DNA of 64,000 nucleotides from Gammaproteobacteria bacterium. Lineage in GTDB: Bacteria > Pseudomonadota > Gammaproteobacteria > SZUA-140. Below, one piece after another: positions 1-17,154 of the stretch (within the stretch, counting starts at the first letter, position 1; each line of letters begins with the position of its first letter). Where the stretch lies: positions 2,571 to 66,570 of the forward strand of contig JALSIC010000052.1 in the NCBI GenBank assembly GCA_026981935.1. Direction: 5' to 3'. The position numbers and the translations under genes were made by a program. Under the pieces are notes generated by a model. It did not search any database. It had not been told where the DNA came from and saw only the letters and a list, made by a program, of their open reading frames with translations.

Positions 1-474
1 CGCCTGGTTGGCGGCATACACGATATATCCAGCCGGTTCAATTTCAAGAATGAACATGCTTTGACCGGGTAGAATCATGGAACCGCGACGATCTTGGCGG
101 TTTATCAGAACTGTATGATCGGGCGACATGCCTCTTATCGTCTCGCTCCACGCGGTGCGGCATGCCACCCGTTCTTTGAACGTTGTACGCATATGGGACA
201 GAATGATATTTCCAGCCTCACGGACATCACTCTGGTCCCTGTGATGGATCACCATGGAACCATATGCTCTTTCTACGACCTGCTGTGCCAAGTGTACTCT
301 GGTAGCCTTCAATGCAATATCAGTCAAGCGATGGACTGCCATGCCTGGCGAGACTTCAATCCATAGGCAGGCATCACCTGGAACCGGCAGAAACCCTTGA
401 GAAACAGTGGCGATATAGGCGGCCAGCTGTGGCTGGAGAGAGTCGATATATACATAGGTTCTAAGAGAAATCAT
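1..474 (-). CDS. Partial CDS (5' end in window, runs off left edge) with BMC-shell-like motifs (EutS/PduU/CsoS1D-type)
   Basis: Manual reverse-complement translation from the ATG at 472-474 gives [16 protein letters not shown]...[41 protein letters not shown]... with no stop before position 1. The segment [11 protein letters not shown]...GSMVI...DVREA resembles the BMC-domain core (D-x-A-x-K-A-A-x-V ... G-x-x-V-x-V-x-G-D-V-x-A-V). This ORF is not in the supplied track, and the plus-strand ORF 94..366 is rejected. Assignment is from memory-based similarity only. Confidence 0.3.
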
Positions 475-1522
475 GGATAGCAAAGAGATCAGTGGCTTGT
501 ATCTACAGCGTGCTGGTTTTATGCCTGGTGGACCAGTTCTGCTTTATTGTGTGGTGGTGGCAGTGAAGAAAAATAGGCTATCCGTTTCGCAATTACATGT
601 ACGCTCTTTTTTGCTTTATGCGCTGTACCGCCGTTTGCGGATTGTATGAATCTCTGATCTTCAGGCAAGGGCGCATTTTTCCATATCCAGCTTGTCTGTT
701 TTTGATAGAAAAGTCTTGATGATGTACTACTTCCTCCAAGAATAAGCTGAATACGCGGGTTTTTATTGAGAAGGCAAGACTTTTGGTGTTCAAAGCTCAT
801 TTTTTGCCTCAACATATTACTTTATAGATATTTTTTTATTTTAGAAAGCAAAATATATTGATTTGATTGATAAAATAACATTTATGGATTGTCTGGCTTT
901 GGGGGTGTGTGACTGAATTTTTGGAAATATGAAATTAAAACTTGGCACAAGATTACTCTCGTGAATGTTCGTAAATAATTGATGCTAAAATTCAAATTTA
1001 TAAATAATCATCAATATTTTGGGTAAATAAAAACAAGTCGTTTCATGCCGCCATATTTTTCATACTAAAGCACGAGGATGGATACATTATCCCTGTCGAA
1101 TTAAGCGTGATTACTGCCTAATTTGCCTTATACGACTGAGCCTGACTTATATACTGTAGAGTCTCATAGTTGAATGGACATGGTCCGACTGTTGACACGC
1201 CGGCTCGGTAGCCTGGATGAAGCGTTGCAAGAGCGCAATCCAGGAAACCAGCCAGGAAACCCCCACGCACGGATTACGTTCCACTCCATCTGGGCTACAC
1301 ATTATTGATGTGGACAATTATGAGTCCAGTAATAAGTCACATCTAATTACATGAATGACAATGTCAAATCTGGTGAAAAGGAATTTGATTGCTGAGCGGA
1401 ATGTATACAACATGGCCTATCGTAAGAGTCTGTCCCTTTTTCTGCTTTTTGCATGGGGGCAGTTATTCAGTATCTTCTCTTGCCGGTTTTCTGGACGGAT
1501 CTAAGCATTGGGTAACGCACAC

Positions 1523-3205
1523 ATGTATGAACTGATCTTCCCTATCATTGCCTTACCGTTTTTGTCAGCCATCGTGTTGCAGCTGATGGCGGATAAGATG
1601 AGGCGAAGCGTTGTATTGATCAGCGTGACTGTTGCTTGGATTACCCTTGTTCTGGCTGGATTTGCAACCTGGTCAGCGATAACTGGAGGAGGAGAGGTTC
1701 GCGAGATCGAGTTGCAGAGTGGCTGGGGAATTCTGAGGTTTGATTCTCTCGGGGTTCTGATGTGTCTGGTGATATCAGCCATCAGCCTGGTGGTCAGGAT
1801 CTATTCTCTTCGATACATGATCGAGGAGCCAGGCTATGTTCGATTTTTTACTTTGCTGGATCTGATGTCGGGCACGCTTTATCTTCTTGTGCTGTCAGGA
1901 GATCTGATAACGCTGCTTATCGCATGGCATTTAATCAGCGTGTGGTTATATTTTCTTCTGGGACATGACATGCGAAGCCAAACTGCATGGAGGTATGCAT
2001 TTTGGACCTGGATTACATATCGCATAGGGGACGTTCCACTCGTAATAGCTGCTATATTGCTTTATCAGGCATACGGCAGCTGGTCTCTGAGTACGATATT
2101 TGAAGGCCTTGCCAACCAGAACCAGATTGAAATGATCTTTTTCCTCCCTCTGCCCGAGGTGGTTGGAGGATTAATTGCGCTGTCTGCTTTTGCCCGCTCC
2201 GCGCAGTTTCTGCTTCATACTTGGCTACCTTATTCCATGGCAGGACCAACGCCGGTGTCCGCCCTCATGCACGCAGGCATTGTAAATGCTGGCGGCTTCC
2301 TCATTAACCGTTTTTCTCCTGTATTTGTGGAGACTGATCTGGTCCTTCACTGGGTATTCCTCGTTGGGTTGGTTACTGCCGTAATTGGATCTCTTCTCAT
2401 GCTTGTACAGAACGATATAAAAAAAGCATTAGGTTATTCGACAATGGGGCAGATGGGCTTCATGGTCATGGAATGCGGGCTGGGAGCATTTTCCCTGGCA
2501 GTCTTTCACCTGATCGCACATGGTTTGTTCAAGGGAACGCTTTTTCTCAGCGCTGGCGATGTAATTGGCAAGGCGCGACAGAACGATGGAGTACCTAGAG
2601 ATCAGCTCTATTCGTACATCGTTGAAAAAAACCCTGTCAAAAGCAGGATGCCTTGGCTGCTGATGGCTTTGCTTACACTATTGCTGCCGGTTACCATTTT
2701 ACTGCTGGCACATTGGATAGTGTCAGAGGACTTTTATCAGAAGCAAGGCGCCATCGTGCTCTTGTTCTTTGGCTGGGTAACTGGTGCGCAGCTTATTTTC
2801 GTGACCTATCGCATGCGTTCTCAGAATCTATGGCGTCTTTTCAGTCTAACTGTCGGTTCATTTGTTATTGTAATTGTTGGATACATATTGATAAGTCATG
2901 TCTTTGATCTGTACCTCTATCCTGATGAAGATTTCCGCAAACGCATCTATGAAGCAGCGTCAATTGACCTGCTCTGGTTCAGCATACTGATTGGTATCCT
3001 CACACTTGTAATTGTGTCAGGATGGGTTAGGACATATTACGTTGAGCGTAATTCCGGGCGACAAATGCATGAACAGATCGTTTCAAGGAAGACAACATAT
3101 GCGTTGATTGCAAACGAACTCTACATCAATGCCTTCTATGCTTATATGTCAAGAAAGATGGAAAAGCTCGCATTGCGGATTAATGCGTGGCTGAGGTGGC
3201 TATGA
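1523..3205 (+). CDS. dabB: DabB-like proton-translocating membrane subunit (NuoL/MnhA/ND5 family, PF00361)
   Basis: 565-aa polytopic membrane ORF. Motifs LIAWHLISVWLYFLLG, SAQFLLHTWLPYSMAGPTPVSALMHAGIVNAGGF, YSTMGQMGFMVMECGLG and AVFHLIAHGLFKGTLFLSAGDV match the antiporter-like NuoL/ND5 core. The ATG at 1523 is preferred over the track's TTG at 1508. Its stop overlaps the next start (TGGCTATGATATGC). Confidence 0.85.
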   Translation: MYELIFPIIALPFLSAIVLQLMADKMRRSVVLISVTVAWITLVLAGFATWSAITGGGEVREIELQSGWGILRFDSLGVLMCLVISAISLVVRIYSLRYMIEEPGYVRFFTLLDLMSGTLYLLVLSGDLITLLIAWHLISVWLYFLLGHDMRSQTAWRYAFWTWITYRIGDVPLVIAAILLYQAYGSWSLSTIFEGLANQNQIEMIFFLPLPEVVGGLIALSAFARSAQFLLHTWLPYSMAGPTPVSALMHAGIVNAGGFLINRFSPVFVETDLVLHWVFLVGLVTAVIGSLLMLVQNDIKKALGYSTMGQMGFMVMECGLGAFSLAVFHLIAHGLFKGTLFLSAGDVIGKARQNDGVPRDQLYSYIVEKNPVKSRMPWLLMALLTLLLPVTILLLAHWIVSEDFYQKQGAIVLLFFGWVTGAQLIFVTYRMRSQNLWRLFSLTVGSFVIVIVGYILISHVFDLYLYPDEDFRKRIYEAASIDLLWFSILIGILTLVIVSGWVRTYYVERNSGRQMHEQIVSRKTTYALIANELYINAFYAYMSRKMEKLALRINAWLRWL

Positions 3206-3206
3206 T

Positions 3207-3965
3207 ATGCAAAGTTTAAGCTGGCTGCTTGGGGCTTTCTTCCTTCCCTTGTTTCCAATGAGCCTGCTCTTCAGCAGGGTTTGGCAAGGCCTCGGTTCCA
3301 CCAGGATGCGTGTGCTCCTGATTTTGCTGTGGCCTCTGCCGGGGGTTTTTGTTCTGGATGCAATGGATCCTTTAATACCATCCTGGCTGGCGATATGGGC
3401 ACTGGCAACGTCCATGCTATATGGTCTTAGAGCGGTTGCCATCAAAGAGGCCAGTGTCTGGGTGGGGTATATGGCGATTTCGGCCTGGTCTTTGGGATGG
3501 TTGATTTTTGCCGTAAGCGATAATCCTGTGTCTCCGATTGCGTATGTTCTATCATTCTCGGCCTCATTTGCATTGCTGACGATGATTATCGGTGAGATAG
3601 AACATGGCTACGGTGCGGCTTATGCCGGCATTGTCACAGGGTTGGCGCAGGATCAAAAGGCACTTTCTGCATTGTTCGTCATATTTATTTTGTCAGCAAT
3701 CGCAACCCCGTTTTTCCCTACCTTTTTTGTGTTGTTGGGGAATATTGCCCAAGTCTCAGGGGTGAGGTTGTTTGCGGCTGTGATAGCAGCACTTGTATGG
3801 CTGGTATGGAGCTGGTCAGCGATGCGTCTGATTCAAGGTCTGCTGGTTGGAACATCTGGCAAAAGAGTGCCACCGCTTCTGACGAAAAGGAAAATTGCCG
3901 TTTATGGGGTTTTGGCATCCTTACTTGTTGTAAGCGCTCTTATTGATCTTGGAGGCTTAAGATGA
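3207..3965 (+). CDS. Polytopic membrane protein of unknown function, translationally coupled between dabB and dabA; possibly a degenerate antiporter-like (NuoN/M-type) fragment
   Basis: 252 aa, roughly 6-7 hydrophobic segments. The start is 1 nt after the dabB stop, and its stop overlaps the dabA start (AAGATGATT, ATGA overlap). The stretch MAISAWSLGWLIF ... TPFFPTFFVLLGNI is weakly reminiscent of the C-terminal half of PF00361 proteins. It has the same low GC as its neighbours. Confidence 0.55.
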   Translation: MQSLSWLLGAFFLPLFPMSLLFSRVWQGLGSTRMRVLLILLWPLPGVFVLDAMDPLIPSWLAIWALATSMLYGLRAVAIKEASVWVGYMAISAWSLGWLIFAVSDNPVSPIAYVLSFSASFALLTMIIGEIEHGYGAAYAGIVTGLAQDQKALSALFVIFILSAIATPFFPTFFVLLGNIAQVSGVRLFAAVIAALVWLVWSWSAMRLIQGLLVGTSGKRVPPLLTKRKIAVYGVLASLLVVSALIDLGGLR

Positions 3966-6900
3966 TTGGCGAAGGGTTAAAGGCACAGGTGAGAACCATG
4001 GTGTTTCTTGCGGGCGAGCCAATTCCAAGATTTTGGCCCATGCGCTCATTTATTCATCATAACCCTTTGCATGGCCTGGAAAAGATGAAGTTTGAACAGG
4101 CTGTAGAAAAGGGTGAGCAGCTGTTCCACGGGCGTGCCTATTTGCCAAGAGATCTGTATCAGCAATATCTCAGGGATGGAAAGATAGATGAATGTATATT
4201 GGAAGCATGCATAACCAAGTTTGCTTCCATGCAGACAAGGATTGAGGGTGTTGAACTGGAAAAATGGCTGAAGTCACTTGTTTACAGTTTTCCAAGGAAT
4301 GTCATCAGTCGTGATCACTTTATTCCGCAGTCGGTAATGAACTCAGATATCACGTCAGTTCTGCAGGGACGGTTTGTGCGGGAAGCTGCAGGGATGGATT
4401 GTGAGGAACTGACTTTGAAGCTGGAGGATGTTCTGATACATAGAGGGAGCATACAGGAAATTATCGATAAGCTTTTCGGTACTGAGCTTGCGAGTCAGTT
4501 GGATGACCTGATTGTCCGCAATTGCCTGAATTTCTTTGATGAAGGTCAGGCAGCCTGGGAGATGCCTTCCAGGGAGAATGGTTTTTTCAATGCCTGGCTG
4601 GCTGTTTTTGGAAAAAGCGGCAGTTTTATGCTCAGTAAAAGGGTATTGCAGGAAGTCTTGGAGTCTGTAACCTGCCCGGAAGAGGCAATCATATATGTCA
4701 TGCGAAATTTCAAAATCCCTGAGTCGCACTGGCAATCCTATTTTCAGCGTGAGTTGACGAGGTTACACGGATGGGCAGGTTTTATCAGGTGGCGATCAAG
4801 CGCTCTCCATTATTATTTTACGAGAAAGTACCCTGGTGACCTTGTGGATTATCTGGCAATCCGACTGATACTTTCACATGCCTTGGTCGATAAACAGGTT
4901 GCCAGTTCTATGCCGAAAAATATGGAAGATCTAAAAGGATATATTCGTGAAAATACCACCCGTGCATACCTTGCTTATCAATACCATAGCGGCAATGTCA
5001 TCCCATCTTTCGCGCATAGGATAGAAAAGGCTTTGTTTTCTGGAAAACAAACTCGAGTTGAATCGGTTGCAACAGATTATTTTCACTATGAGCGGGAGAG
5101 TATCGCGACACAACATGCACAAAATTTGAGGAGGTTATCAACATCTGTAAATGCAGAGCAACAATTATTAGCCCTTGATGCTGACGGTATAGGGAATTTG
5201 GTCAGATGCATTGAAAAATTCGAGAGACGGGAAGGACTTTATTGGCTCAAGGCGATGGAGGAAAAAGCGATTAATGAGCTATTGAGAAATATTAGCCTGA
5301 TGCCATCAAAGCAACTTGTGAACCGGAAACGTCCCTTTGTTCAAGCGATGTTCTGCATTGATACGAGGTCAGAGAGATTGCGCCGTCACTTGGAAAATGT
5401 CGGAGATTACCAGACGTTCGGCATTGCAGGTTTTTTTGGCGTACCCGTGAGTTTTATGGAGATTGATAAGGGTACGGAAGTCCATCTTTGCCCTGTATTG
5501 CTGACACCGAAAAACCTCATAATGGAGATGTCTGTTTCAGGTGTTCAGGATACCGTTGCTTTATCCATTATAGAGAAAGTTGTGCATGAACTGAAAGAAA
5601 CTGTTCTGGCGCCTTATGTGACGGTTGAAGCAATAGGGCTTTTGTTCGGTCTCGACATGTTTGGGAAAACCATGATGCCGGTTGTCTATAACAGATGGCG
5701 GACCAAACTGCATAAACACAAGCCATTTACTCATCTCCTGATCGACAAATTGAGCAGAGAGCAGGCCGATTCAATCGTTCGTGCTGTACAAAGGGCACTG
5801 ATATCAAAGGCAATCGAAATTGAGTTCAAGTTGAGTCCTGAACAAGTCAATGACGATGTGGTTCGAGAATTGCGGGAAGTCGCACTGGGCAATATAGATC
5901 ATGCTGATAGCTTTCAGAAATTATTCAATGTAGACGATGTGCGCCTGAATGAGTTCATTGAACAGCTGCGCGATGTCTATCGCGTCAACAAATCTGAGTC
6001 ACGTCACCAAATGGAACGGCTTGGCCGCATCGGCTTTACGCTTGACGAGCAAGTTACTTTCGTGTCACAGGCGCTGCAGGCAATTGGCCTGACTAAAGTC
6101 TTCTCACGATTTGTTCTTGTTGTGGGTCACGGCAGCCAGTCTCAGAACAATCCCTATGAGTCAGCTCTCGATTGCGGGGCATGCGGAGGTAATGTTGGAT
6201 TGCATAATGCGCGTATTTTTGCTGGTATGGCCAATAAACCAGCAGTAAGACAGCGTTTGCGTGCGATAGGTATCGATATACCAGATGATACTTGGTTTAT
6301 TCCAGCGCTGCATAATACCACTATCGATGAAATCATCATGTATGACCTGGACCTCGTACCCGCAACTCACCTGATCTATCTCGACCGACTCCGTCAGGGG
6401 TTGACCGCTGCCTGCCGCTTATGTGCCAAAGAGCGGATACCAGAGCTGGGGGAAGATATTTATCCTGTTTCCAATGGCGTAAGAAAGGCGATGCGTAATG
6501 CGCTGGATTGGTCTCAGGTGCGTCCAGAATGGGGGTTGTCACGCAATGCTTACTTCATTATCGGCAGGCGCGGGATGACGCGTAATATATCTCTGGAAGG
6601 GCGGGCATTCATGCATTCTTATGATTACCGTGTGGATCATAACTTGATTCTGCTCGAGAATATACTTACCGGTCCCCTTGTCGTCGCGCAATGGATCAAT
6701 ATGGAGCACTATTTTTCAGCGGTCGATAATGAGTCATATGGAAGTGGCAGTAAGGTCTATCATAATGTTGCGGGCCGATTTGGCGTGATGACAGGCAATA
6801 TTGGTGACCTGAGGACAGGCCTGCCTGCGCAGACTGTACTGATGAATGGCAAGCCTTACCATGAACCCTTGCGCTTGATGACTCTTATAGAATCACCGTT

Positions 6901-7081
6901 GGAAAGTGTGAAAACTGCCATAGGGCGGGTTGCAAGCGTCAGAAAGCTTCTGCAAAACGAGTGGATTCACATGGCAGTTGTAGATCCAATATCTGGAGGT
7001 GTATATAGATATTGTGCTGGTGATTGGAAAGCGTATGACATTGGAGATCTGCATGCAGGTCGGGAGGCAGCTGCGATATGA
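3962..7081 (+). CDS. dabA: DabA-like inorganic carbon transporter subunit (DUF2309/UPF0753, PF10070), catalytic beta-CA-like partner of DabB
   Basis: 1039 aa. The N-terminal IPRFWPMRSFIHHNPLHGLE is typical of DUF2309. MFCIDTRSE carries the Cys-x-Asp motif, and VVGHGSQSQNNPYESALDCGACGG carries a His followed by Cys 15 residues later; this matches the 4-residue metal-site pattern described for DabA. Starts and stops are coupled with the ORFs on both sides. Confidence 0.85.
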   Translation: MIGEGLKAQVRTMVFLAGEPIPRFWPMRSFIHHNPLHGLEKMKFEQAVEKGEQLFHGRAYLPRDLYQQYLRDGKIDECILEACITKFASMQTRIEGVELEKWLKSLVYSFPRNVISRDHFIPQSVMNSDITSVLQGRFVREAAGMDCEELTLKLEDVLIHRGSIQEIIDKLFGTELASQLDDLIVRNCLNFFDEGQAAWEMPSRENGFFNAWLAVFGKSGSFMLSKRVLQEVLESVTCPEEAIIYVMRNFKIPESHWQSYFQRELTRLHGWAGFIRWRSSALHYYFTRKYPGDLVDYLAIRLILSHALVDKQVASSMPKNMEDLKGYIRENTTRAYLAYQYHSGNVIPSFAHRIEKALFSGKQTRVESVATDYFHYERESIATQHAQNLRRLSTSVNAEQQLLALDADGIGNLVRCIEKFERREGLYWLKAMEEKAINELLRNISLMPSKQLVNRKRPFVQAMFCIDTRSERLRRHLENVGDYQTFGIAGFFGVPVSFMEIDKGTEVHLCPVLLTPKNLIMEMSVSGVQDTVALSIIEKVVHELKETVLAPYVTVEAIGLLFGLDMFGKTMMPVVYNRWRTKLHKHKPFTHLLIDKLSREQADSIVRAVQRALISKAIEIEFKLSPEQVNDDVVRELREVALGNIDHADSFQKLFNVDDVRLNEFIEQLRDVYRVNKSESRHQMERLGRIGFTLDEQVTFVSQALQAIGLTKVFSRFVLVVGHGSQSQNNPYESALDCGACGGNVGLHNARIFAGMANKPAVRQRLRAIGIDIPDDTWFIPALHNTTIDEIIMYDLDLVPATHLIYLDRLRQGLTAACRLCAKERIPELGEDIYPVSNGVRKAMRNALDWSQVRPEWGLSRNAYFIIGRRGMTRNISLEGRAFMHSYDYRVDHNLILLENILTGPLVVAQWINMEHYFSAVDNESYGSGSKVYHNVAGRFGVMTGNIGDLRTGLPAQTVLMNGKPYHEPLRLMTLIESPLESVKTAIGRVASVRKLLQNEWIHMAVVDPISGGVYRYCAGDWKAYDIGDLHAGREAAAI

Positions 7082-7410
7082 ATGCAATAAAGTTTAATCA
7101 CCTGAAGAAGCTTGAGATCATCCTTGAGGGTGAATATAAGGAATTCGCGATTGACTTGCTGGACAGAGTAGGCGTAAAGGGTTACAGCATCATCAATAAT
7201 CTTTCCGGAAAAGGCAGTCATGGATTTCGCGACGGGCATATCATGTTCAATGAGGATGATCTTCTGATAATGATCATCGCTGCAGTGCCCGAAAAGCTCG
7301 TTGAGCCGATATTGCAAGGATTTTCACCGTTTTTCAAAGAGCATTCTGGTGTGGTTTTCGTTTCCGACATTCAGGTTACTCGGCTTGTCAAATTTGGCGG
7401 TGACGATTGA
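7078..7410 (+). CDS. PII-like (GlnB-fold) signalling protein, translationally coupled to dabA; possibly a carboxysome-associated CPII-like bicarbonate/adenylate sensor
   Basis: 110 aa. KKLEIILEGEYKEFAIDLLDRVGVKGYSIINNLSGKGSHG ... GVVFVSDIQVTRLVKF aligns by eye with the GlnB/PII pattern (KKIEAIIKPFKLDDV...GITGMTVTEVKGFGRQKG ... GKIFVFDVARVIRI). The ATG at 7078 overlaps the dabA stop (GATATGAATG). Confidence 0.65.
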   Translation: MNAIKFNHLKKLEIILEGEYKEFAIDLLDRVGVKGYSIINNLSGKGSHGFRDGHIMFNEDDLLIMIIAAVPEKLVEPILQGFSPFFKEHSGVVFVSDIQVTRLVKFGGDD

Positions 7411-7860
7411 GTGTATGATCTGTTAGCAGGAAATCTATCTGCCCGTTCATCTTCAAATCCGTAGCCCCGCTGCACGAATTGATAAGCGCAGGCTGGGCAT
7501 GGACCATGGGCAGTACACTGACGTAAGGCGGAATCTCGGGTAAATCACGCCGCTCTCCAAATGTATCCTTTTGTTCGCAGATCTAGGCTGCACGGTGACT
7601 CTCACACAATGCGCGCGACAATTCCATTGTGTTCGGCCTCCAGGCGAGTACTAAATAATATAAGGTGCGTCATTTTTGGAGCAGCCTGTCACTGGCATGA
7701 GTGCTGAAACACCGGGAAGTGTCTAACTGATTGAAATTTATGTAGTATGCATATTGCGCGCGCGTAAAACACGTGGCAGAAGAGCTTGCGGTAGAATGAT
7801 TGCTGTGGCAGCTCGCTGCCATGGATGTGTGTTTGTTTCCAACGTCTGAATATGACGGAT
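7411..7860. other. Base-composition boundary: the AT-rich island (1..~7.4 kb) meets the GC-rich core here; intergenic, contains the palindrome TGGCAGC-TC-GCTGCCA at 7807..7822
   Basis: Visible switch from AT-rich codons and intergenic sequence to a strong G/C third-position bias downstream. No ORF with recognisable similarity lies in this region. Confidence 0.6.
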
Positions 7861-7933
7861 GTTCTTCGTTGCCGGGATTGATGGCGGACCAATAACTGGA
7901 CAGATTCAAGGACTGTATGTAGAGCGTGACGAT

Positions 7934-8410
7934 ATGACAAGATTCAACCGGCTCGGGATAGTGACGGGACTGGCATTGGCCATGGCAGGTTGTGAGCAGA
8001 TGCAAAGTGGCGCTGAGTCTGGCAGGGTCTTGTCCACGCAAAGTGGAGCGGCCATTGTCCGGAAGGATGACCCGGAACTCGTGCGCAAGGGAGAGGCGGT
8101 GTTCCTCCGGCATTGCGCCGCCTGTCATGGCCGGCAAGCCGAGGGTGCGCCGGACTGGCGTCGCCGGGGTGAGGACGGTTTTTATCCGCCGCCGCCTTTG
8201 AACGGCACTGGCCATGCCTGGCACCATCCCACGGCCATGCTGCGGGACATGATCCGCAACGGCAGCCCGCCGGGGGAGGGGCGCATGCCGGCCTGGGGCG
8301 ACAAGCTGAGTGCGGAGGAGATCGACGCCGTCATCGCCTGGTTCCAGTCGCTGTGGCCAGATGAAGTCTATGCGGCATGGTATGATCGGGAGCAGCGTTT
8401 TATGGAATAG
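7934..8410 (+). CDS. Class I c-type cytochrome (mono-haem, lipoprotein-type signal peptide)
   Basis: Single CXXCH (LRHCAACHG), a downstream Met ligand region (GRMPAWGDKLS), and signal plus lipobox LALAMAGC. The start at MTRFNRLG is preferred over the track start at 7859. Confidence 0.75.
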   Translation: MTRFNRLGIVTGLALAMAGCEQMQSGAESGRVLSTQSGAAIVRKDDPELVRKGEAVFLRHCAACHGRQAEGAPDWRRRGEDGFYPPPPLNGTGHAWHHPTAMLRDMIRNGSPPGEGRMPAWGDKLSAEEIDAVIAWFQSLWPDEVYAAWYDREQRFME

Positions 8411-8451
8411 TTCATTTATTTATCTGAATTTTTCAGGTCAGGAGGGGAAAT

Positions 8452-8856
8452 ATGTACGGTTTTCATGTCACCCTGCAGGGCGGTTTCGATGAAGTGGTCG
8501 AACGTGTGACCGCCGCGCTCCAGGAGGAGGGCTTCGGCGTGCTGACGGACATCGATGTTCAGGCGACTCTGAAAAAGAAACTGGACATAGACCGACGTCC
8601 CTATCGTATCCTGGGTGCCTGCAATCCCCCGCTGGCGCACCGTGCACTGGAAGCCGATCCCGACATCGGCCTCCTGCTGCCATGCAATGTCGTGGTGCGT
8701 GAAGAGGAGGATGGCACCGTGACCGTCGCTTTCATGGATCCTGCCGCGGTGCTGGGGCTGGTGGACAAACCCGAGGTGGCAAGCCTGGGAGAGGAAGTGC
8801 GTGCCAGGCTGTTGCGCGTGCGTGATGCCCTGAAGGACAGGCCCCGGACGTCGTGA
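8452..8856 (+). CDS. DUF302 domain protein
   Basis: 134 aa. [33 protein letters not shown]...[14 protein letters not shown] is a typical DUF302 signature. Confidence 0.7.
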
Positions 8857-8920
8857 CGGCAATCGCCGAGGATCCCTTGGATTCCTTGCGTGGCACGCAG
8901 CGCAGCACAGGCGCCTGAAC

Positions 8921-9715
8921 ATGAGCTGGTGGGGCAAGCTGTTCGGCGGCACCCTGGGCTTCGTGCTGGGAGGTCCCCTGGGAGCGCTCATCGGCGCGGC
9001 GCTGGGGCACAATTACGACGTCAAGGCGCGGCGCCTGGGCGGCCCGGAAGGCCTGGGTGGGCGGGAGCGCATCCAGATGGCCTTTTTTACGGCGACCTTC
9101 TCCATCATGGGGCACCTGGCCAAGGCGGACGGCAGGGTGTCGGAGAACGAGATCCATCTCGCCCAGGCGGTGATGGATCAGATGCAGCTCAATCCCGAGC
9201 TGGAGCGGCTGGCCAAGCAGCTCTACCGGGAAGGCAAGCAGGCGGACTTCTCCCTGGACGAGGTGCTGGACCAGTTCAAGCGCGAGTGCCGTCACCGGCG
9301 CATGTTGATGCGCATCTTTCTGGAGATCCTCATCCAGACCGCCTATGCGGATGGCGCGATGCATCCCGCCGAGCGCCAGATCCTGTTGCACATCTGCGAC
9401 CGGCTCGGGGTCTCCCGCCTGGAATTCGAGCGTCTCGAGGCCATGGTGCGCGCGGCGCAGGGTTTTGCCGGTGCCCGCGCCGGTGCTCCGCGGCGCGAGG
9501 ACGAGCTGCGGCAGGCCTATGAGATCCTGAATGTCTCTCCCGAGGCCTCCGATGCGGAGGTGAAAAAGGCCTACCGCCGCCTCATCAACCAGCACCATCC
9601 CGACAAGCTCATTGCCAAGGGTCTGCCGGAGGAGATGATGAAGCTTGCCGAGCAGAAGACCCGTGAGATCCGTCAGGCCTACGAGCGGATCCGCGAGGCG
9701 CGAGGATTCCGCTGA
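8921..9715 (+). CDS. djlA: Co-chaperone DjlA (N-terminal TM + TerB-like domain, C-terminal J domain)
   Basis: Collinear by eye with E. coli DjlA: MSWWGKLFGG...GHLAKADGRVSENEIHLAQ ... YEILNVSPEASDAEVKKAYRRLINQHHPDKLIAKGLPEEMMKLAEQKTREIRQAYERI. Confidence 0.9.
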   Translation: MSWWGKLFGGTLGFVLGGPLGALIGAALGHNYDVKARRLGGPEGLGGRERIQMAFFTATFSIMGHLAKADGRVSENEIHLAQAVMDQMQLNPELERLAKQLYREGKQADFSLDEVLDQFKRECRHRRMLMRIFLEILIQTAYADGAMHPAERQILLHICDRLGVSRLEFERLEAMVRAAQGFAGARAGAPRREDELRQAYEILNVSPEASDAEVKKAYRRLINQHHPDKLIAKGLPEEMMKLAEQKTREIRQAYERIREARGFR

Positions 9716-9848
9716 GATACCGTGCACCCGTGCGCGGGGAAAATGTGCTATATTCAGGCGGCCCTGCTCAGGAGAGAGCAGGCATTTTGCCGCCTGTGGC
9801 AGATAACCATTTGATTTTCAGACCAGAAGGATATGGAGCATAGCAGTC

Positions 9849-10481
9849 ATGGCGACGATTGCCACTCGGAGGCCAGCGATGGTGTTGTATTCCCGGCCTG
9901 AATGCCCTTTGAGCCACCGCGTACGGATCGTCCTTGCAGAAAAGAACATCGGCGCGGAGATCGTCGACGTGGATCCCGACAATCCGCCCGAGGATCTCAT
10001 CGACCTCAATACCTACGATTCCCTGCCCGTTCTGGTGGATCGTGATCTGGTCCTGTACAACTCCCAGATCATCATGGAATATCTGGACGAACGCTTTCCC
10101 CACCCCCCCCTGATGCCGGTGGATCCGGTCTCGCGGGCCCGTACGCGGATGATGTTGTACCGCATCGACGAGGACTGGTACAGGATTCTCGGCGATATCA
10201 GTGGCGAAGACGAGGCACGCGCTGCCGAGGCACGCAAGACGATCTACGAGGGCCTGATCCTCATGGCGCCCATCCTCGCCAAGAAACCCTTCTTCATGAG
10301 TGATGATTTTGCCCTGGTGGAATGCAGCCTGGCCCCCATCCTCTGGCGGCTGCCTCATTACGGGATCGAACTGCCCCCCCAGGCCAAGGCGGTGAAGCAG
10401 TATGCGCGACGCCTGTTCGAGCGGGAATCGTTTCAGGCCAGCCTCTCGGAGATCGAACGCGAGCTGGGGGCCGGCTGGTGA
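9849..10481 (+). CDS. sspA: Stringent starvation protein A (GST-like)
   Basis: MVLYSRPECPLSHRVRIVLAEKNIGAEIVDVDPDNPPEDLIDLNTYDSLPVLVDRDLVLYNSQIIMEYLDERFPHPPLMP is near-identical in pattern to E. coli SspA. Confidence 0.93.
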   Translation: MATIATRRPAMVLYSRPECPLSHRVRIVLAEKNIGAEIVDVDPDNPPEDLIDLNTYDSLPVLVDRDLVLYNSQIIMEYLDERFPHPPLMPVDPVSRARTRMMLYRIDEDWYRILGDISGEDEARAAEARKTIYEGLILMAPILAKKPFFMSDDFALVECSLAPILWRLPHYGIELPPQAKAVKQYARRLFERESFQASLSEIERELGAGW

Positions 10482-10527
10482 GACAGGCGGCGGGTTTTGC
10501 CGCGGGTTATTGCGGAGGAGAAGCGCC

Positions 10528-10932
10528 ATGGAGATGAGTTCCAGCAGGCCTTACCTGATCCGCGCCATCTACCAGTGGATCAGCGACAACGGCCTGACGC
10601 CCCATATCCTGGTGGATGCCACTGATCCCCGGGTCCAGGTGCCCGCGCGCTATGTGGAGAACGGCCGGATCGTGCTCAACATCAGCGGCCAGGCCACCAG
10701 CGGCCTGCACATCGACAACGACTGGATCATGTTCAAGGCCCGCTTCGGGGGGCAGGAAATGGAAGTCACGGTGCCCGTCGGCGCGGTCCTGGCCATTTAT
10801 GCCCGTGAGAACGGCCGCGGCATGGTACTGGAAAACGCCGATGCTTCGCCCCCGCCCGATGCGCCGCCGCCTTCGCCTCCCCCTGAGCACAAGGGCAAGA
10901 CCAGGCGGCCCTATCTCCAGGTGGTGAAATAA
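10528..10932 (+). CDS. sspB: ClpXP adaptor stringent starvation protein B
   Basis: MEMSSSRPYLIRAIYQWISDNGLTPHILVDATDPRVQVPARYVENGRIVLNIS... with a Pro/Ala-rich tail. It is preceded by GGAGGAG; the internal start is preferred over the track start at 10402. Confidence 0.9.
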   Translation: MEMSSSRPYLIRAIYQWISDNGLTPHILVDATDPRVQVPARYVENGRIVLNISGQATSGLHIDNDWIMFKARFGGQEMEVTVPVGAVLAIYARENGRGMVLENADASPPPDAPPPSPPPEHKGKTRRPYLQVVK

Positions 10933-10949
10933 GCCGTTATTTCTTTTCT

Positions 10950-11017
10950 GTCATTTCGAACCGAAGGGAGAAATCCTGTCCCGCTGCCCCGGATTTCTCG
11001 CTGCGCTCGAAATGGCG
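10950..11017. repeat. REP/MITE-like palindromic element, single copy (family also at 43262 and 48001-48403)
   Basis: GTCATTTCGAACCGAAGGGAGAAATCCTGTCCCGCTGCCCCGGATTTCTCGCTGCGCTCGAAATGGCGA. The terminal inverted repeats are GTCATTTCGA / TCGAAATGgC, with an inner inverted pair GAGAAATCC / GGATTTCTC. Confidence 0.8.
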
Positions 11018-11211
11018 AGAGGGGTAGAAATAACAGGGGGGTGGTTGAGATGACGGGGTGTGGGCGGGATGACAGGGTGCGCCCTGACGTTGGCCTCTTC
11101 CGTATCCCTTTCGGAGGAACAGTCCATGGCCGTGAACGCCTCTGCCGTGATCTGTCTTCTCGTGCAGGGTAGTGCGGCTGCGAAGAGAGATCAAGGCTGC
11201 AGAGATTAAAG

Positions 11212-12624
11212 TCACGTAGATTCCCATGGCGCCGCTTTCTGCCCTCCGGCCGCTGGCAGCATCTTGCCCGGATTGAGGATGTCCCGGGGGTCGAACAGCT
11301 GTTTGAGGCCGCGCATCAAGGCCAGCGACGTGGCATCCAGTTCGCGTGCGATGAAATCCCTCTTTTCCAGCCCCACGCCATGTTCGCCCGAGAGCGTACC
11401 GGAGAGTTCGAGCACCAGATCGAATACCGCTGCAAGGCACATGTCGGCACGGCGCATCTGGTCCGCATCGTCAGGGTCCACCAGGAGATTGACATGAATG
11501 TTGCCGTTGCCGGCATGGCCGAAGTTGACGATGGTGATGTCATGGCGGCGCGCCAGCTCCCTGAGTCCGTTGATGAACCGTGGCAGCCTGGAGACAGGCA
11601 CCACCACGTCTTCGTTGATCTTCTTTGGTGCGACGGTGCGCAGGGCCGGGGACAGGGCCTTGCGCGTCGCCCACAGGGCCTGGGCCTGTTGCGGGTCGCG
11701 GGCGGCCTGGAAATCCAGCAGTCCGTCGTTCGTCGCGGCTGCCTGGACCGCCCCGATGGCATGCTCCATTGCCACGGCGCTGCCATCCACCTCGATGATG
11801 AGCATGGCCGCAGCCCCCTGGGGAAGTGCTGTCCCTGCGTAGTGGCGGATCATGGCGATGGCCTGCCCGTCCATGAATTCCAGGGCGCAGGGTGTGACCG
11901 GCTGGCCCATGATGGCGGCGATGGCCCGGGCGGCATGATCCATGTCGGCGTAGACCGCCTGCATGGTGACCTTGGCCTCGGCGCAGGGAGTGAGCTTGAG
12001 CGTCGCCTCGGTGATCACCGCCAGGGTGCCCTCTGAGCCGATGAGCAGGCGGGTCAGGTCGTAGCCCACCACGCCCTTGGAGGTGTAGACGCCGCAGCGC
12101 AGATCCTTCCCCGTGCCTGTCACGGCCCGCAGGCCCAGGACGTTCTCCCGCGGCGTGCCGTATTTCACGGCTCGGGGACCGGCGGAGTTGTAGGCCAGGT
12201 TGCCGCCCACCGTGCAGAAGGCGGCGCTGGTGGGATCCGGCGGCCAGAACAGGCCATGCCTCGCCGCGGCGTCTTGCACAGCCTGGTTGGTCACGCCGGG
12301 TTCCACCACCATGACCCGGTTGGCCGGATCGATCTTCAAGATGCGGTCCATGCGTTCCAGGGACAGCACCAGCCCGCCGGGTGCCGGTACCGTGGCCCCC
12401 GTGGTGCCGGTGCCGCGGCCGCGGGGCACGAGCGGGGTGCGCGTCTCGTGGCACAGCGCCACCAGCGCGCGCACGGTTTCGTGACAGGTGGCGAAGGCCA
12501 CGGCGGCGGGCAGCTGCTGGCGGCGGCTGTTGTCGTAGCCATAGGGCCAGCAATCGGCGGGGTCGGTGAGGAGGTTGTCGGGCCCGACGACGGCGGCAAT
12601 GCGGGCCAGCAGCTCGGGCGACAC
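11212..12624 (-). CDS. FAD-linked oxidase (GlcD / D-lactate dehydrogenase family)
   Basis: 470 aa with an FAD-binding PCMH-type N-domain (PRGRGTGTTGA, VVEPGVTNQAVQD) and an FAD-oxidase C-terminal domain (ELSGTLSGEHGVGLEKRDF). Confidence 0.75.
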   Translation of the reverse strand: MSPELLARIAAVVGPDNLLTDPADCWPYGYDNSRRQQLPAAVAFATCHETVRALVALCHETRTPLVPRGRGTGTTGATVPAPGGLVLSLERMDRILKIDPANRVMVVEPGVTNQAVQDAAARHGLFWPPDPTSAAFCTVGGNLAYNSAGPRAVKYGTPRENVLGLRAVTGTGKDLRCGVYTSKGVVGYDLTRLLIGSEGTLAVITEATLKLTPCAEAKVTMQAVYADMDHAARAIAAIMGQPVTPCALEFMDGQAIAMIRHYAGTALPQGAAAMLIIEVDGSAVAMEHAIGAVQAAATNDGLLDFQAARDPQQAQALWATRKALSPALRTVAPKKINEDVVVPVSRLPRFINGLRELARRHDITIVNFGHAGNGNIHVNLLVDPDDADQMRRADMCLAAVFDLVLELSGTLSGEHGVGLEKRDFIARELDATSLALMRGLKQLFDPRDILNPGKMLPAAGGQKAAPWEST

Positions 12625-13692: not shown

Positions 13693-15603
13693 TCAATAGG
13701 GGCGGGGGATGCCGCCGCGGAAGCGGGCCCACGCCAGTTCGCGGAAGATACGGTTGTCCCGGTCGAGATAGAGGGCGCCTGTCTGGCCGGCGAAGCGTTC
13801 GTAGCGGTAGGCGCGCAGATTGTCCAGGAAGGGGATGATGCGGTAGGCGTCCACCCCCAGTGCGTAGAAACGGGTGTACTGACCGGCCTGCTCCGGCCAC
13901 AGGCGTTCGATGGTCTTCTTCAGCGGCGGCGGATCCCCCAATACCCAGGGGATGTCGCAGAAAACGATGTCGTCCATGTCGCGGTCGGCGGCGCGGTCGC
14001 GCCGCCCTGTGAAGATGTGGGAGGTGGCATAGACGGGCAGTTGCGAGGCGTAATGGAATTTCAGCTGGGGGCGGATCAGGCGGGCCTGGCGGGGGAAGGC
14101 GCCGAGAAAGACGAAATCGGCATCGCGGCGCCGGCGGGGCTCGAACTTGAGGGATTGGCCGATGAGCTTTTCCAGTCGCCGCCGGCGTTCCAGGCTCTCG
14201 TCCAGGTTCAGCAGGGCCTGAATGGGCTGGGAGAAATCGTTGTCCCGTGGTGGATAGAACTGGACTTCCAGGAGCGTGCCGCCCAGTTCTTCCCAGGTGG
14301 CACGGAAGGCCTCCAGGAGCCGCTCGCCCCAGGGTCCTTCGGGCAGCAGGGCCAGGGCCTGGTTGTTGCCTTCCAGCCAGGCGCGTTCCGCCACCTGGCG
14401 GGCCTCGTCTTCGGGGGCCAGGCCGAACTGGAAGAGTTCCGTGGGGGGATGGCCGTCGCTGCTGTAGTTGAGGGACAGCGTGGGAACGGGCAGGCGCGGG
14501 CGACCGGCCAGTTCGTTGACGGCCTCCTTGCGCAGCGGGCCGACGATGAAATCGGCACCGTCCCGAACCGCCTGTTCATAGGCGGTCATCGCAGACGCCG
14601 CGTTGCGGCCGCTGTCGTAGATGCGGATCGTGGGGCGGTAGTCGGAGCGGCTGCGCTGGTAATGCGCGGCGAGGAAGCCGTCGCGCAGGGCCGCCGCCGC
14701 CCTGGCGGGCGGGCCCTCGTGGGGCAGCAGCAGGGCGATGGTGGCGGGGCGGCGGCGCTCTTCCAGGCGCCGGGCCAGCAGTGAATCGATGATGTCCTGC
14801 ATCGCCGGGTGCGCGGGATAACGCTTTCGCCAGGCTTCCACCTGGCGGGTCACGTCCTGGGGGTGTTCCTCGGCACGCCTGGCGATGAGGGCCAGCTCCA
14901 GCCAGCCGCTGAAGACATCGGGTGGAGGGGCCAGGCGCAATTGTTCCAGCGCTGGGGCGGACAGGCGCAGCAGTGCCTGCCAGATGCGGGTCTGGTTTTC
15001 ATGAATGCGCCGGGTGTCTTGGGCGGGCAGCAGGGGCTCCAGGATCACGCGCTCGCGGGCGGATTCCAGGAGATTGCCCGCCCTCAGGTAGGCCTGGGCG
15101 CGCAGTTCGTGGATGGCGATGGCCAGGGCGGCAGGGAGCGGCGGCTGCGCCGGGGGCAGGCCTTGCAGGTGTGACAGGGCCTGGCGGGGGCGGTTGTCCA
15201 TCAGCGCGATGCGTGCCGTGAGCAGGGCCCGCCGGGCCCTGAGCTGCGGTCCCAGGGGGGCGCCTGCGTCTTCCAACCCTTCTTTCGGGCCTTCGGCGGG
15301 CAGGGTGTCGAGGAGGCGCCGGGCCTGGTCCACATGATTGCCTGCCAGGAGTGCCTCCGCCGCGCGCAGGCGGTAGTCCAGGGCCTGCGGCGGCGTGGCC
15401 TGTTCCGCCGCTTGCAGGTAGGCTTGCGCCGCGGCCTGGAAGTCGCCCTTGTCCTGCGCCTTGCGCGCCTGGGCCGCCAGCGCGGCGGGCTCGGGTGCGG
15501 TCGGTTGCTGGGAGGGCGTGACGGCGCAGCCCGCCGCCAGCAGCAGGGACAGCCAGAAGGCATGGCGGAAGGCCGCGAAGCCGACGGTCATAGTGTGGGG
15601 CAT
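13693..15603 (-). CDS. lpoA: Penicillin-binding protein activator LpoA (N-terminal TPR + C-terminal periplasmic-binding-like domain)
   Basis: 636 aa with lipoprotein signal LLLAAGCAVTP, a TPR-like N-terminal half, and a C-terminal half resembling the Leu/Ile/Val-binding-protein fold (PTIRIYDSGRNAASAMTAYEQAVRDGADFIVGPL). Sits in the conserved position divergent from rsmI. Confidence 0.8.
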   Translation of the reverse strand: MPHTMTVGFAAFRHAFWLSLLLAAGCAVTPSQQPTAPEPAALAAQARKAQDKGDFQAAAQAYLQAAEQATPPQALDYRLRAAEALLAGNHVDQARRLLDTLPAEGPKEGLEDAGAPLGPQLRARRALLTARIALMDNRPRQALSHLQGLPPAQPPLPAALAIAIHELRAQAYLRAGNLLESARERVILEPLLPAQDTRRIHENQTRIWQALLRLSAPALEQLRLAPPPDVFSGWLELALIARRAEEHPQDVTRQVEAWRKRYPAHPAMQDIIDSLLARRLEERRRPATIALLLPHEGPPARAAAALRDGFLAAHYQRSRSDYRPTIRIYDSGRNAASAMTAYEQAVRDGADFIVGPLRKEAVNELAGRPRLPVPTLSLNYSSDGHPPTELFQFGLAPEDEARQVAERAWLEGNNQALALLPEGPWGERLLEAFRATWEELGGTLLEVQFYPPRDNDFSQPIQALLNLDESLERRRRLEKLIGQSLKFEPRRRRDADFVFLGAFPRQARLIRPQLKFHYASQLPVYATSHIFTGRRDRAADRDMDDIVFCDIPWVLGDPPPLKKTIERLWPEQAGQYTRFYALGVDAYRIIPFLDNLRAYRYERFAGQTGALYLDRDNRIFRELAWARFRGGIPRPY

Positions 15604-15621
15604 GCAAAAACGTTATGCTGG

Positions 15622-16542: not shown

Positions 16543-16575
16543 AATCCTTCCGTGCATGCTGCATCTTGAATGATG

Positions 16576-16938: not shown

Positions 16939-17154
16939 CATGCCGCTTTACCCCGAGACACACCTGCAGTCGCCATTCGTATGGCCGGCAGCACTGCCGG
17001 CACAGGCTTTCTTGAGACATTACTCTAAGTTCTGAAATCAACCGAATGATTTATTTGTTTTCGCTGTCTGACGGCAGGGGCTTTGTGTTGCCCTCTTCCG
17101 CCTTTGTTCGCCTAAGTTACTGTGACACAAGGGATTATGGTGGGCGAATTTTGC

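What the first reader, a model, noticed from the sequence alone, without database searches (positions are those of the whole stretch)
3207..3965. Extra 252-aa polytopic membrane protein wedged between dabB and dabA
Canonical DAB/MpsAB operons are two-gene (NuoL-like + DUF2309). Here a third hydrophobic ORF is tightly coupled on both sides (1-nt gap upstream, ATGA overlap downstream), so it is almost certainly co-expressed and stoichiometric with the complex. Parts of it (MAISAWSLGWLIF ... TPFFPTFFVLLGNI) faintly resemble the distal half of antiporter-like PF00361 subunits. It could be a second, truncated proton-channel half (a NuoM/N-like remnant), analogous to the NdhD/NdhF pairing in cyanobacterial CO2-uptake NDH-1 complexes. 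I do not recognise it as a named family.
Basis: inference. Interest (0 to 1): 0.7.

Follow-up and report, generated by a model that had tools for sequence, protein, structure and literature searches.

The report
DabC, third subunit of DAB1
The extra membrane protein between dabB and dabA is real, but it is DabC, the already described third subunit of DAB1-type CO2-uptake complexes: a half-size relative of the complex I subunit NuoM that has lost its proton-pumping residues, so the finding is ordinary.

Summary
ORF 3207-3965 (+, 252 aa) starts 1 nt after the dabB stop and overlaps dabA by ATGA. Each junction has a Shine-Dalgarno-like motif, and the gene is under purifying selection (dN/dS 0.155).

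It is not an unknown insert. It belongs to a ~250-aa family with no Pfam or NCBIfam model. In all 84 loci examined, the family member sits in a fixed cassette: dabB, this gene, long-form dabA (~1040 aa), CPII-type P-II.

The literature calls this gene DabC:
- In 2018 it was noted as an unknown protein between DabA1 and DabB1 in the 3-gene DAB1 cluster of H. neapolitanus (hneap_0908).
- A 2026 cryo-EM preprint on the Thermocrinis albus DabA/DabB/DabC heterotrimer describes it as about half of NuoM, lacking proton-pathway residues, and required in vivo.
- That preprint lists Nitrococcus mobilis as DabC-positive. Its gene (my locus L067) matches the window ORF at E 1e-36.

My own tests agree. Foldseek top hits are all NuoM/ND4/MrpD/NdhD-type subunits (query TM-score 0.8-0.86). 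A family profile aligns to T. thermophilus Nqo13 residues 199-446 (TM7-14, E 6e-8). The Nqo13 TM7 Lys, TM8 Lys and TM12 Glu correspond to Phe, Gln/Leu and no acidic residue.

The "second proton channel" idea and the "unnamed family" claim are not supported. Interest is low.

The parts
1..474 (-). 5' part (first 158 codons) of a 204-aa CsoS1D-like carboxysome shell gene, cut by the window edge. It marks the alpha-carboxysome locus next to the DAB1 operon.
   Evidence: Contig L086 is identical to window 1-11529 and carries the full gene, with precomputed PF27545 CsoS1D_N. My own hmmscan of the 158-aa fragment found no family. In the 83% relative L087 the full cso operon lies upstream.
1523..3205 (+). 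dabB1: NuoL-like proton-translocating membrane subunit, 560 aa from ATG 1523. The mechanical ORF starts at TTG 1508.
   Evidence: PF00361 E 1.1e-48 and PF00662 E 1e-10. NCBIfam NuoL-type hits fall below the equivalog cut-offs. Called as 560 aa in L086.
3193..3199 (+). Shine-Dalgarno-like GAGGTGG, 7 nt before the dabC start and inside the 3' end of dabB.
   Evidence: Read directly from the sequence.
3207..3965 (+). dabC: 252-aa, 8-TM membrane subunit homologous to TM7-TM14 of NuoM-type antiporter-like subunits. This is the flagged feature.
3951..3955 (+). Shine-Dalgarno-like GGAGG, 6 nt before the dabA start and inside the 3' end of dabC.
   Evidence: Read directly from the sequence.
3962..7081 (+). 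dabA1: long-form (1039 aa) cytosolic beta-carbonic-anhydrase-like subunit.
   Evidence: PF10070 DabA E 2.7e-252. DabA2 structure 9rd0_A matches at E 1.7e-98, with extra sequence in the window protein between the aligned blocks (316-454 and 522-683).
7078..7410 (+). CPII-type P-II protein (110 aa), overlapping the dabA stop by 4 nt.
   Evidence: PF00543 E 4.5e-19. PDB 5d4n/5d4l match at E ~7e-49. It follows dabA in all 75 loci where the contig extends far enough.

Best explanation
ORF 3207-3965 is dabC, the small third membrane subunit of a DAB1-type (three-subunit DAC) vectorial CO2-hydrating complex. The operon is dabB1-dabC-dabA1-CPII and lies beside an alpha-carboxysome locus.

Shown here:
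- DabC is an 8-helix protein homologous to TM7-TM14 of NuoM/ND4-type antiporter-like subunits.
- It retains both discontinuous helices: FLPLFP, equivalent to TM7, and ATPxFPxFF, equivalent to TM12.
- It has non-ionisable residues at the positions of the Lys/His/Glu residues that carry protons in NuoM.
- Its conserved charged residues (R28, R35, R75, R80, E/D81, R134, R152, R207, D224 in the family) lie in alternate loops, which the positive-inside rule places in the cytoplasm.

Inferred, with support from the T. albus cryo-EM preprint: DabC does not pump. It packs against DabB the way NuoM packs against NuoL. Together with DabB it provides the cytoplasmic membrane-surface platform on which long-form DabA sits. 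It is therefore a required structural or allosteric subunit of the complex. In that complex, proton flow through DabB drives one-way CO2 hydration at the buried Zn site of DabA, feeding bicarbonate to the carboxysome.
For: Position and coupling.

Family and synteny:
- 18 close homologues and 113 cluster-level homologues, almost all ~250 aa.
- In all 84 loci the homologue lies directly before a ~1020-1040-aa DabA. It lies directly after DabB in 82 loci; the other two contigs begin at dabC. P-II follows in 75/75 assessable loci.
- The same cassette occurs in the Aquificae member Hydrogenivirga.

Link to published DabC:
- Nitrococcus mobilis Nb-231 is listed as 'DabC present: yes', with DabA A4BLJ5 and DabB A4BLJ3. 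Its gene in L067 matches the window ORF at 36% identity, E 1e-36.
- hneap_0908 lies between hneap_0907 (DabA1) and hneap_0909 (DabB1).
- DAB1 was described as a 3-gene cluster downstream of the carboxysome operon, with DabA1 1046 aa and DabB1 559 aa. The window proteins are 1039 and 560 aa.
- The preprint reports a heterotrimer and describes DabC as half of NuoM, with hydrophobic pathway residues, no water chain, and delta-dabC non-functional.

Fold: AF2 pLDDT 89.7. The top 50 Foldseek PDB hits are all antiporter-like subunits, with query TM-score 0.68-0.86 and target TM-score 0.26-0.49.

Sequence: the A2 profile matches M. smegmatis NuoM at E 5.3e-8 and Nqo13 at E 6.4e-8, aligned 7-244 to 199-446.

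Residues: K204 aligns to F12 (F in 57/77 family members). K235 aligns to position 44 (Q 38, L 21). H292 aligns to position 93 (A 36). E377 falls in an insertion.

Topology: mean K+R is 2.06, 0.88, 2.43 and 1.60 in odd loops, against 0.05-0.39 in even loops and termini.

Selection: dN/dS 0.155.

Mass: DabA + DabB + DabC is 209 kDa, against the ~200 kDa T. albus complex.
Against: - I could not compare the window ORF directly with the Hneap_0908 or T. albus DabC sequences. They were not retrievable and the DAB1 coordinates are not in the PDB copy. The link therefore runs through N. mobilis, Aquificae relatives and synteny.
- The non-pumping role rests on alignment to NuoM and on a preprint, not on an assay of this protein.
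- The window's DabC and its 83% relative have replaced several near-invariant loop residues (P151K, R152A, R134G, D224L, R28G). Its DabA interface may therefore differ from the family norm.
- Its dN/dS is the highest of the four genes.
Confidence: 0.9

Rival explanations
1. One reading: DabC is an active second proton half-channel. It would work with DabB the way NdhD works with NdhF or NuoM with NuoL, adding a second proton per cycle.
For: It has a true antiporter-like fold and keeps both discontinuous helices. Gln at the TM8-Lys position in 38/77 members and near-invariant S19, Y72 and S92 are polar residues in the membrane. The gene is required for function according to the literature.
Against: No Lys, Glu or His sits at any of the four mapped pathway positions. 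The window protein has F12, L44, A93 and L176. TM4-6, which carry the TM5 Glu and form the first half-channel, are absent. All family-wide conserved charges lie in loops. The preprint saw no water chain in T. albus DabC.
Confidence: 0.05
2. DabC is a hydrophobic gas conduit. The de-charged remnant of the proton channel would guide CO2 from the membrane or periplasm towards the buried DabA active site, as proposed for NdhF3 in cyanobacterial NDH-1MS/CupA.
For: Channel-lining charges are replaced by Phe, Leu and Trp, and the aromatic residues are unusually conserved (W42, W64, W85, W98, W198, W201, W203, F12, F16, F173). The NdhF3 precedent is summarised.
Against: The preprint places substrate entry and product exit channels in DabA conformers and assigns DabC a structural or allosteric role. 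Two-subunit DAB2 complexes take up CO2 without DabC.
Confidence: 0.04
3. It is the detached C-terminal part of a split dabB (gene fission), or a generic permease inserted by chance.
For: It lies immediately after dabB with a 1-nt gap. The preprint's table marks Aquificae DabC as 'fused'.
Against: DabB is complete on its own: PF00361 covers profile positions 1-286 of 294, and it is 560 aa like DabB1 and DabB2. DabC therefore duplicates TM7-14 rather than completing DabB. hhalign of the family against the window's DabB finds nothing (E 0.46). The fixed position in 80 species-level genomes from Gammaproteobacteria, Verrucomicrobiota, Zetaproteobacteria, Aquificae and Campylobacterota excludes a chance insertion.
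Confidence: 0.01

Closest known systems
DabC of DAB1 complexes (Halothiobacillus neapolitanus hneap_0908; Thermocrinis albus DabC, cryo-EM preprint 10.64898/2026.05.01.722082). Also called the third subunit of three-subunit DACs.
   Same: It lies between dabB and long-form dabA, next to a carboxysome locus. It is ~250 aa, polytopic, with no Pfam family. It has a half-NuoM fold and hydrophobic residues at the proton-pathway positions. It is homologous (E 1e-36) to the N. mobilis gene that the preprint counts as DabC. The predicted complex mass is ~209 kDa against ~200 kDa.
   Different: It shares only 34-47% identity with other family members, apart from one 83% relative. Its lineage has replaced several near-invariant cytoplasmic-loop residues (P151K, R152A, R134G, D224L). 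Direct comparison with the two experimentally studied DabC sequences was not possible.
NuoM / ND4 / Nqo13 (also NuoN, NuoL, MrpD, NdhD): PF00361 antiporter-like subunits of complex I and Mrp.
   Same: It shares the fold of TM7-TM14, including both discontinuous helices. Profile E is 5e-8 to 6e-8 against solved NuoM chains, and query TM-score is 0.8-0.86.
   Different: It is half the length (8 TM rather than 14) and lacks TM1-6. It does not hit PF00361 at E <= 1. The TM7 Lys, TM8 Lys, TM10 His and TM12 Glu are not conserved. By sequence it cannot be assigned to M rather than L or N.
NdhD3/NdhF3/CupA (NDH-1MS) cyanobacterial CO2-uptake module.
   Same: In both, a pair of antiporter-like membrane proteins carries a cytoplasmic CO2-hydrating protein. 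6tjv_D and 6tjv_F are among the Foldseek hits.
   Different: NdhD3 is a full-length subunit with its charges intact, inside a redox-driven NDH-1 complex. DabC is a de-charged half subunit in a redox-independent three-protein complex driven by the proton motive force. CupA and DabA are unrelated folds, according to the preprint's description.
DAB2 / MpsAB two-subunit complexes (H. neapolitanus DabA2B2, PDB 9rd0; S. aureus MpsAB).
   Same: They share the DabA (PF10070) plus DabB (PF00361) core. The window's DabA matches 9rd0_A at E 1.7e-98.
   Different: They have no DabC and a shorter DabA (827-870 aa). The window's DabA has ~70 and ~86 extra residues between the aligned blocks. Any relation to S. 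aureus MpsC was not tested.

Membership tests
DabC (third subunit of DAB1 / three-subunit DAC) | Encoded in one operon with dabB (PF00361) and long-form dabA (PF10070), between the two. | tested here: met
   1-nt gap and ATGA overlap. Pfam of the neighbours. Same order in 84/84 loci.
DabC (third subunit of DAB1 / three-subunit DAC) | Sequence homology to genes that the literature counts as DabC. | tested here: met
   The N. mobilis Nb-231 locus L067 matches at 36% identity, E 1e-36, and is listed as 'DabC present: yes' in Suppl. Table 6. Aquificae homologues P0089/P0130 (E 3e-12) and P0101 (E 2.8e-9) sit in the same cassette.
DabC (third subunit of DAB1 / three-subunit DAC) | Direct similarity to the two experimentally studied proteins (Hneap_0908, T. 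albus DabC). | not testable with these tools
   Neither sequence was retrievable. The DAB1 structure is not in the PDB copy. The single genome-collection scan kept only the best 80 loci.
DabC (third subunit of DAB1 / three-subunit DAC) | Small (~250 aa) polytopic membrane protein with no Pfam family. | tested here: met
   252 aa, GRAVY 1.10. No Pfam or NCBIfam hit at E <= 1. 8 TM segments in the AF2 model.
DabC (third subunit of DAB1 / three-subunit DAC) | About half of NuoM in size, with helices that align structurally to NuoM. | tested here: met
   Foldseek query TM-score 0.8-0.86 and target TM-score ~0.45 to ND4/NuoM chains. The profile aligns to Nqo13 residues 199-446. Its placement next to DabB could not be tested.
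DabC (third subunit of DAB1 / three-subunit DAC) | Proton-pathway residues of NuoM replaced by hydrophobic ones. | tested here: met
   Window residues F12, L44, A93 and L176. Family counts: F 57/77 at position 12; Q 38 and L 21 at position 44; A 36 at position 93.
DabC (third subunit of DAB1 / three-subunit DAC) | Physically part of a DabA/DabB/DabC heterotrimer and required for CO2 uptake. | not testable with these tools
   Known only from the literature for T. albus and H. neapolitanus. Needs purification or CAfree complementation.
PF00361 antiporter-like subunits (NuoL/M/N, MrpA/D, NdhD/F) | Matches the Pfam PF00361 model above its gathering score. | tested here: not met
   No Pfam hit even at E <= 1.
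PF00361 antiporter-like subunits (NuoL/M/N, MrpA/D, NdhD/F) | 14-TM core with two inverted 5-TM repeats (TM4-8 and TM9-13). | tested here: not met
   Only the equivalent of TM7-TM14 is present.
PF00361 antiporter-like subunits (NuoL/M/N, MrpA/D, NdhD/F) | Conserved TM5 Glu, TM7 Lys, TM8 Lys and TM12 Glu/Lys forming the proton path. | tested here: not met
   The TM5 region is absent. The other positions are non-ionisable.
PF00361 antiporter-like subunits (NuoL/M/N, MrpA/D, NdhD/F) | Remote homology in sequence and fold. | tested here: met
   Profile against PDB gives E 5.3e-8 to 1e-5 for many NuoM/ND4/ND5/MrpD chains. Foldseek gives 102 hits at E <= 1e-3, and the top 50 are all of this superfamily.
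CPII (carboxysome-associated P-II) for the downstream gene 7078-7410 | Close sequence similarity to the solved CPII-type P-II proteins, and a position next to DAB genes. | tested here: met
   5d4n and 5d4l match at E ~7e-49 over residues 1-106. It follows dabA in 75/75 assessable loci. That 5d4n is the Thiomonas CPII of Wheatley et al. 2016 is from my own knowledge.

The most novel reading that the evidence does not exclude
DabC is not merely a scaffold. In this reading, its de-charged, aromatic-lined remnant of the antiporter half-channel would be a dedicated hydrophobic CO2 path or gate. That path would be specific to DAB1 complexes and would deliver CO2 to long-form DabA, analogous to the proposed NdhF3 gas channel. 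The loop changes specific to the window's lineage (P151K, R152A, R134G, D224L) would then mark a retuned DabA/CPII interface.
Probability: 0.05. Interest if true: 0.5.

Novelty: already known. Interest (0 to 1): 0.12.

Why it matters
DAB complexes are the main CO2-uptake engines of chemoautotroph carbon-concentrating mechanisms and are candidates for engineering CO2 fixation. It matters in practice that the three-gene DAB1 form needs DabC, because a two-gene transplant of this operon would probably fail.

For this window, the value of the result is annotation:
- An unannotated hypothetical protein can be named dabC.
- The operon can be named dabB1-dabC-dabA1-CPII.
- The locus can be recognised as part of a low-GC carboxysome/DAB1 island in a high-GC chromosome.

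The result adds an independent sequence-level confirmation of the preprint's statement that the NuoM proton-pathway residues are lost, across 77 family members. It also provides a synteny survey covering 80 species. It does not reveal a new kind of system.

Tried and rejected
- The search for related loci with the 77-sequence alignment A2 failed because no stretch was conserved enough. It was repeated with A1.
- a profile search of the 5.8-billion-protein database with A2 returned only 11 proteins because of the candidate cap, and none were named. It did not retrieve H. neapolitanus or T. albus DabC.
- a literature search with poorly chosen terms returned noise.
- Schmid et al. 2021 (J Bacteriol, PMC8570276), the paper on three-subunit DACs, is not held. 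It is cited only through reference lists and through the preprint's statement.
- a malformed search term.
- hhalign of the family against the window's own DabB gave E 0.46, so there is no detectable closer kinship to DabB than to other antiporter-like subunits.
- hmmscan of the truncated CsoS1D-like fragment found nothing. Its identity rests on the precomputed hit for the full gene in the identical contig L086.
- promoter and terminator scans gave counts at or below shuffle expectation, so they are not informative.
- Considered and rejected: chance ORF, generic inserted permease, and split dabB. The reasons are given under the rival explanations.

Full report
**Observation**

The ORF exists exactly as described.
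- ATG is at 3207 and the TGA stop ends at 3965, giving 252 codons.
- The upstream gene (1508/1523-3205) ends with TGA at 3203-3205, one base before the start codon.
- The downstream gene starts with ATG at 3962, so ATGA is shared.
- GAGGTGG (3193-3199) and GGAGG (3951-3955) are well placed as ribosome-binding sites.

Pfam identifies the neighbours:
- upstream, a NuoL-like PF00361/PF00662 protein;
- downstream, DabA (PF10070, E 2.7e-252, 1039 aa);
- after DabA, overlapping by 4 nt, a 110-aa P-II protein.

The 252-aa protein matches no Pfam or NCBIfam model even at E <= 1.

**It is a real, conserved gene**

- A word-indexed search found 18 relatives.
- An exhaustive phmmer search of 1.84 billion cluster representatives found 113, nearly all about 250 aa.
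- Against the closest relative (83% identity, locus L087) dS is 0.63 and dN/dS is 0.155. That is purifying selection, somewhat weaker than on dabB (0.074), dabA (0.097) and the P-II gene (0.008).

**Context survey**

I collected loci from three sources:
- three Thioalkalivibrio contigs and one MAG;
- 80 species-representative genomes, the best of 196 confirmed matches;
- later, a Hydrogenivirga (Aquificae) contig.

tblastn with the four window proteins gave these results:
- In all 84 loci held at that point, the homologue lies directly upstream of a DabA match spanning about 3.0-3.1 kb.
- It lies directly downstream of DabB in 82. The two exceptions are contigs that begin at dabC.
- A P-II gene follows DabA in all 75 loci where the contig continues. 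The nine without it all end inside or at the end of dabA.

The hosts are mostly sulfur- or nitrite-oxidising Gammaproteobacteria: Thioalkalivibrio, Thiohalophilus, Thiogranum, Nitrococcus, Candidatus Thiodiazotropha, Chromatiales and Acidiferrobacterales. Verrucomicrobiota, a zetaproteobacterium, Aquificae and Sulfurimonas also occur.

**What the literature already says**

[quoted passage not shown] - A 2026 preprint (10.64898/2026.05.01.722082) names the protein DabC and solves the Thermocrinis albus DabA/DabB/DabC heterotrimer at 2.13 A. It states that:
  - DabC distinguishes DAB1 from DAB2 operons;
  - it belongs to no Pfam family;
[quoted passage not shown] - it has hydrophobic residues where NuoM has its proton-pathway residues, and shows no water chain;
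- Its Supplementary Table 6 lists Nitrococcus mobilis Nb-231 (DabA A4BLJ5, DabB A4BLJ3) as 'DabC present: yes'. That locus is my L067. Its gene between DabB and DabA matches the window ORF at 36% identity, E 1e-36. This ties the window ORF to what the field calls DabC.

I could not obtain the Hneap_0908 or T. albus sequences themselves for a direct alignment.

**Independent tests of the fold**

- AlphaFold2 on the 18-sequence alignment gave a confident all-helical model, with pLDDT 89.7 and pTM 0.88.
- Foldseek against the PDB gave 102 hits at E <= 1e-3. The top 50 are all antiporter-like subunits: ND4/NuoM, NuoN, ND5, MrpD, NdhD/F, HycC and MbsH. Query TM-scores are mostly 0.8-0.86 but target TM-scores only about 0.4-0.49, so the whole of DabC equals about half of the target.
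- A profile of 77 family members hits solved NuoM chains by sequence alone: M. smegmatis NuoM at E 5.3e-8 and T. thermophilus Nqo13 at E 6.4e-8. The Nqo13 alignment runs from profile position 7 to 244 against residues 199-446 of 469, which is TM7 to TM14.
- The invariant N-terminal 'FLPLFP' aligns to the 'KTPLFPLH' break of TM7.

**Is it a proton channel?**

In the Nqo13 alignment:
- K204 (TM7) falls on position 12. This is Phe in the window and in 57 of 77 family members, and never charged.
- K235 (TM8) falls on position 44, which is Leu here. The family has Gln 38, Leu 21, Val 6.
- H292 (TM10) falls on position 93, which is Ala here and in 36 of 77 members.
- E377 (TM12) falls in an insertion relative to the family profile. 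The neighbouring positions 175-177 are aliphatic.
- The TM5 Glu has no counterpart because TM1-6 are missing.

The family's conserved charged positions (28, 35, 75, 80, 81, 134, 152, 207, 224) all lie in alternate loops or at helix ends. Those loops are K/R-rich (means 2.06, 0.88, 2.43, 1.60). The other loops and both termini are not (0.05-0.39).

By the positive-inside rule, and by the known periplasmic N-terminus and odd-numbered orientation of TM7 in NuoM (my own knowledge), the topology is N-out/C-out. The conserved loops then face the cytoplasm, where DabA sits. The longest is the motif RFGAAYxGLxxGLAxxxPR between the equivalents of TM11 and TM12.

This supports a docking or allosteric role rather than a pumping role, in agreement with the preprint. 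That last step is inference.

**Other rivals**

- DabB is complete by itself (PF00361 profile positions 1-286 of 294; 560 aa), so DabC is not its missing C-terminus.
- hhalign of the family against the window's DabB finds nothing.
- A hydrophobic CO2-conduit role cannot be excluded with these tools. However, DAB2 works without DabC, and the preprint locates the substrate channels in DabA.

**The rest of the operon**

- The window's DabA aligns to H. neapolitanus DabA2 (9rd0_A) in blocks: 186-316, 454-522 and 683-1027. There are roughly 70 and 86 extra residues in the two gaps, consistent with the long DabA1 form.
- The P-II protein is a close match (E ~7e-49) to the solved P-II entries 5d4n and 5d4l. 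To my knowledge these are the carboxysome-associated CPII proteins.
- DabA + DabB + DabC sum to 209 kDa, comparable with the ~200 kDa T. albus complex.

**Wider context**

- The window starts inside a CsoS1D-like shell gene.
- In the 83% relative, the full alpha-carboxysome operon lies just upstream: CsoS2, CsoSCA, CsoS4A/B, CsoS1 and CsoS1D.
- The DAB1 region is 44-49% GC, while everything from about position 7950 onward is 58-72% GC. That high-GC part is core chromosome: cytochrome c, DUF302, DjlA, the dcw cluster, dnaG, rpoD and tRNA-Met.
- The same GC step occurs in the relative, so it reflects an island rather than a mis-assembly.

**Verdict**

But the object is DabC of a DAB1 operon, which is already described, named, shown to be required and structurally resolved. 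The proposed second proton channel is contradicted both by the family's residue pattern and by the published structure. Novelty: already known. Interest: low.

Noticed in passing
window 1-7900 versus 7950-64000; also L087 1-14000 versus 15000-20759: There is a sharp GC step. The CsoS1D fragment, the DAB1 operon and CPII are 44-49% GC, while the adjoining core chromosome (dcw cluster, dnaG, rpoD) is 58-72% GC. The same step occurs in an 83%-related genome, where the whole alpha-carboxysome operon is on the low-GC side. This suggests a horizontally acquired carboxysome/DAB1 island. No tRNA or integrase was seen at the right-hand junction.
   Followed up: partly
window 3207-3965, residues 28, 134, 151, 152, 224: The window's DabC and its 83% relative P0002 replace family-wide near-invariant loop residues. 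P151 (74/77) is K, R152 is A, R134 is G, D224 (73/77) is L and R28 is G. DabC also has the highest dN/dS of the four operon genes. The cytoplasmic interface in this lineage may be retuned or relaxed.
   Followed up: partly
window 7078-7410: The P-II gene overlapping the dabA stop is a close match to solved P-II entries 5d4n/5d4l (E ~7e-49). It is the most constrained gene of the operon (dN/dS 0.008) and follows dabA in 75/75 assessable DabC-containing loci. In practice the conserved unit is a four-gene cassette.
   Followed up: partly
L030, L077, L013: tblastn hits for DabB and/or DabA extend well beyond the DAB1 cassette in these loci. This suggests a second DAB locus (possibly of DAB2 type) close by in some genomes.
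   Followed up: no
L085 5361-7750 (Hydrogenivirga): The DAB1 preprint's table marks Aquificae DabC as 'fused'. In this Aquificae contig, dabB and dabC are called as separate ORFs overlapping by 10 nt. Whether the fusion in T. albus and relatives is real, an annotation effect or a frameshift was not examined.
   Followed up: no
window 519-815 (-): A 98-aa ORF (called as 93 aa in L086) lies between the CsoS1D-like gene and dabB and has no Pfam match. It is not called in the 83% relative L087.
   Followed up: no
window 3962-7081, residues 316-454 and 522-683: Relative to DabA2 (9rd0_A), the window's long-form DabA carries about 70 and 86 extra residues between conserved blocks. The second segment overlaps in numbering the 'elbow' and flexible 'arm' described for T. 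albus DabA1. These segments are candidates for DAB1-specific contacts.
   Followed up: no
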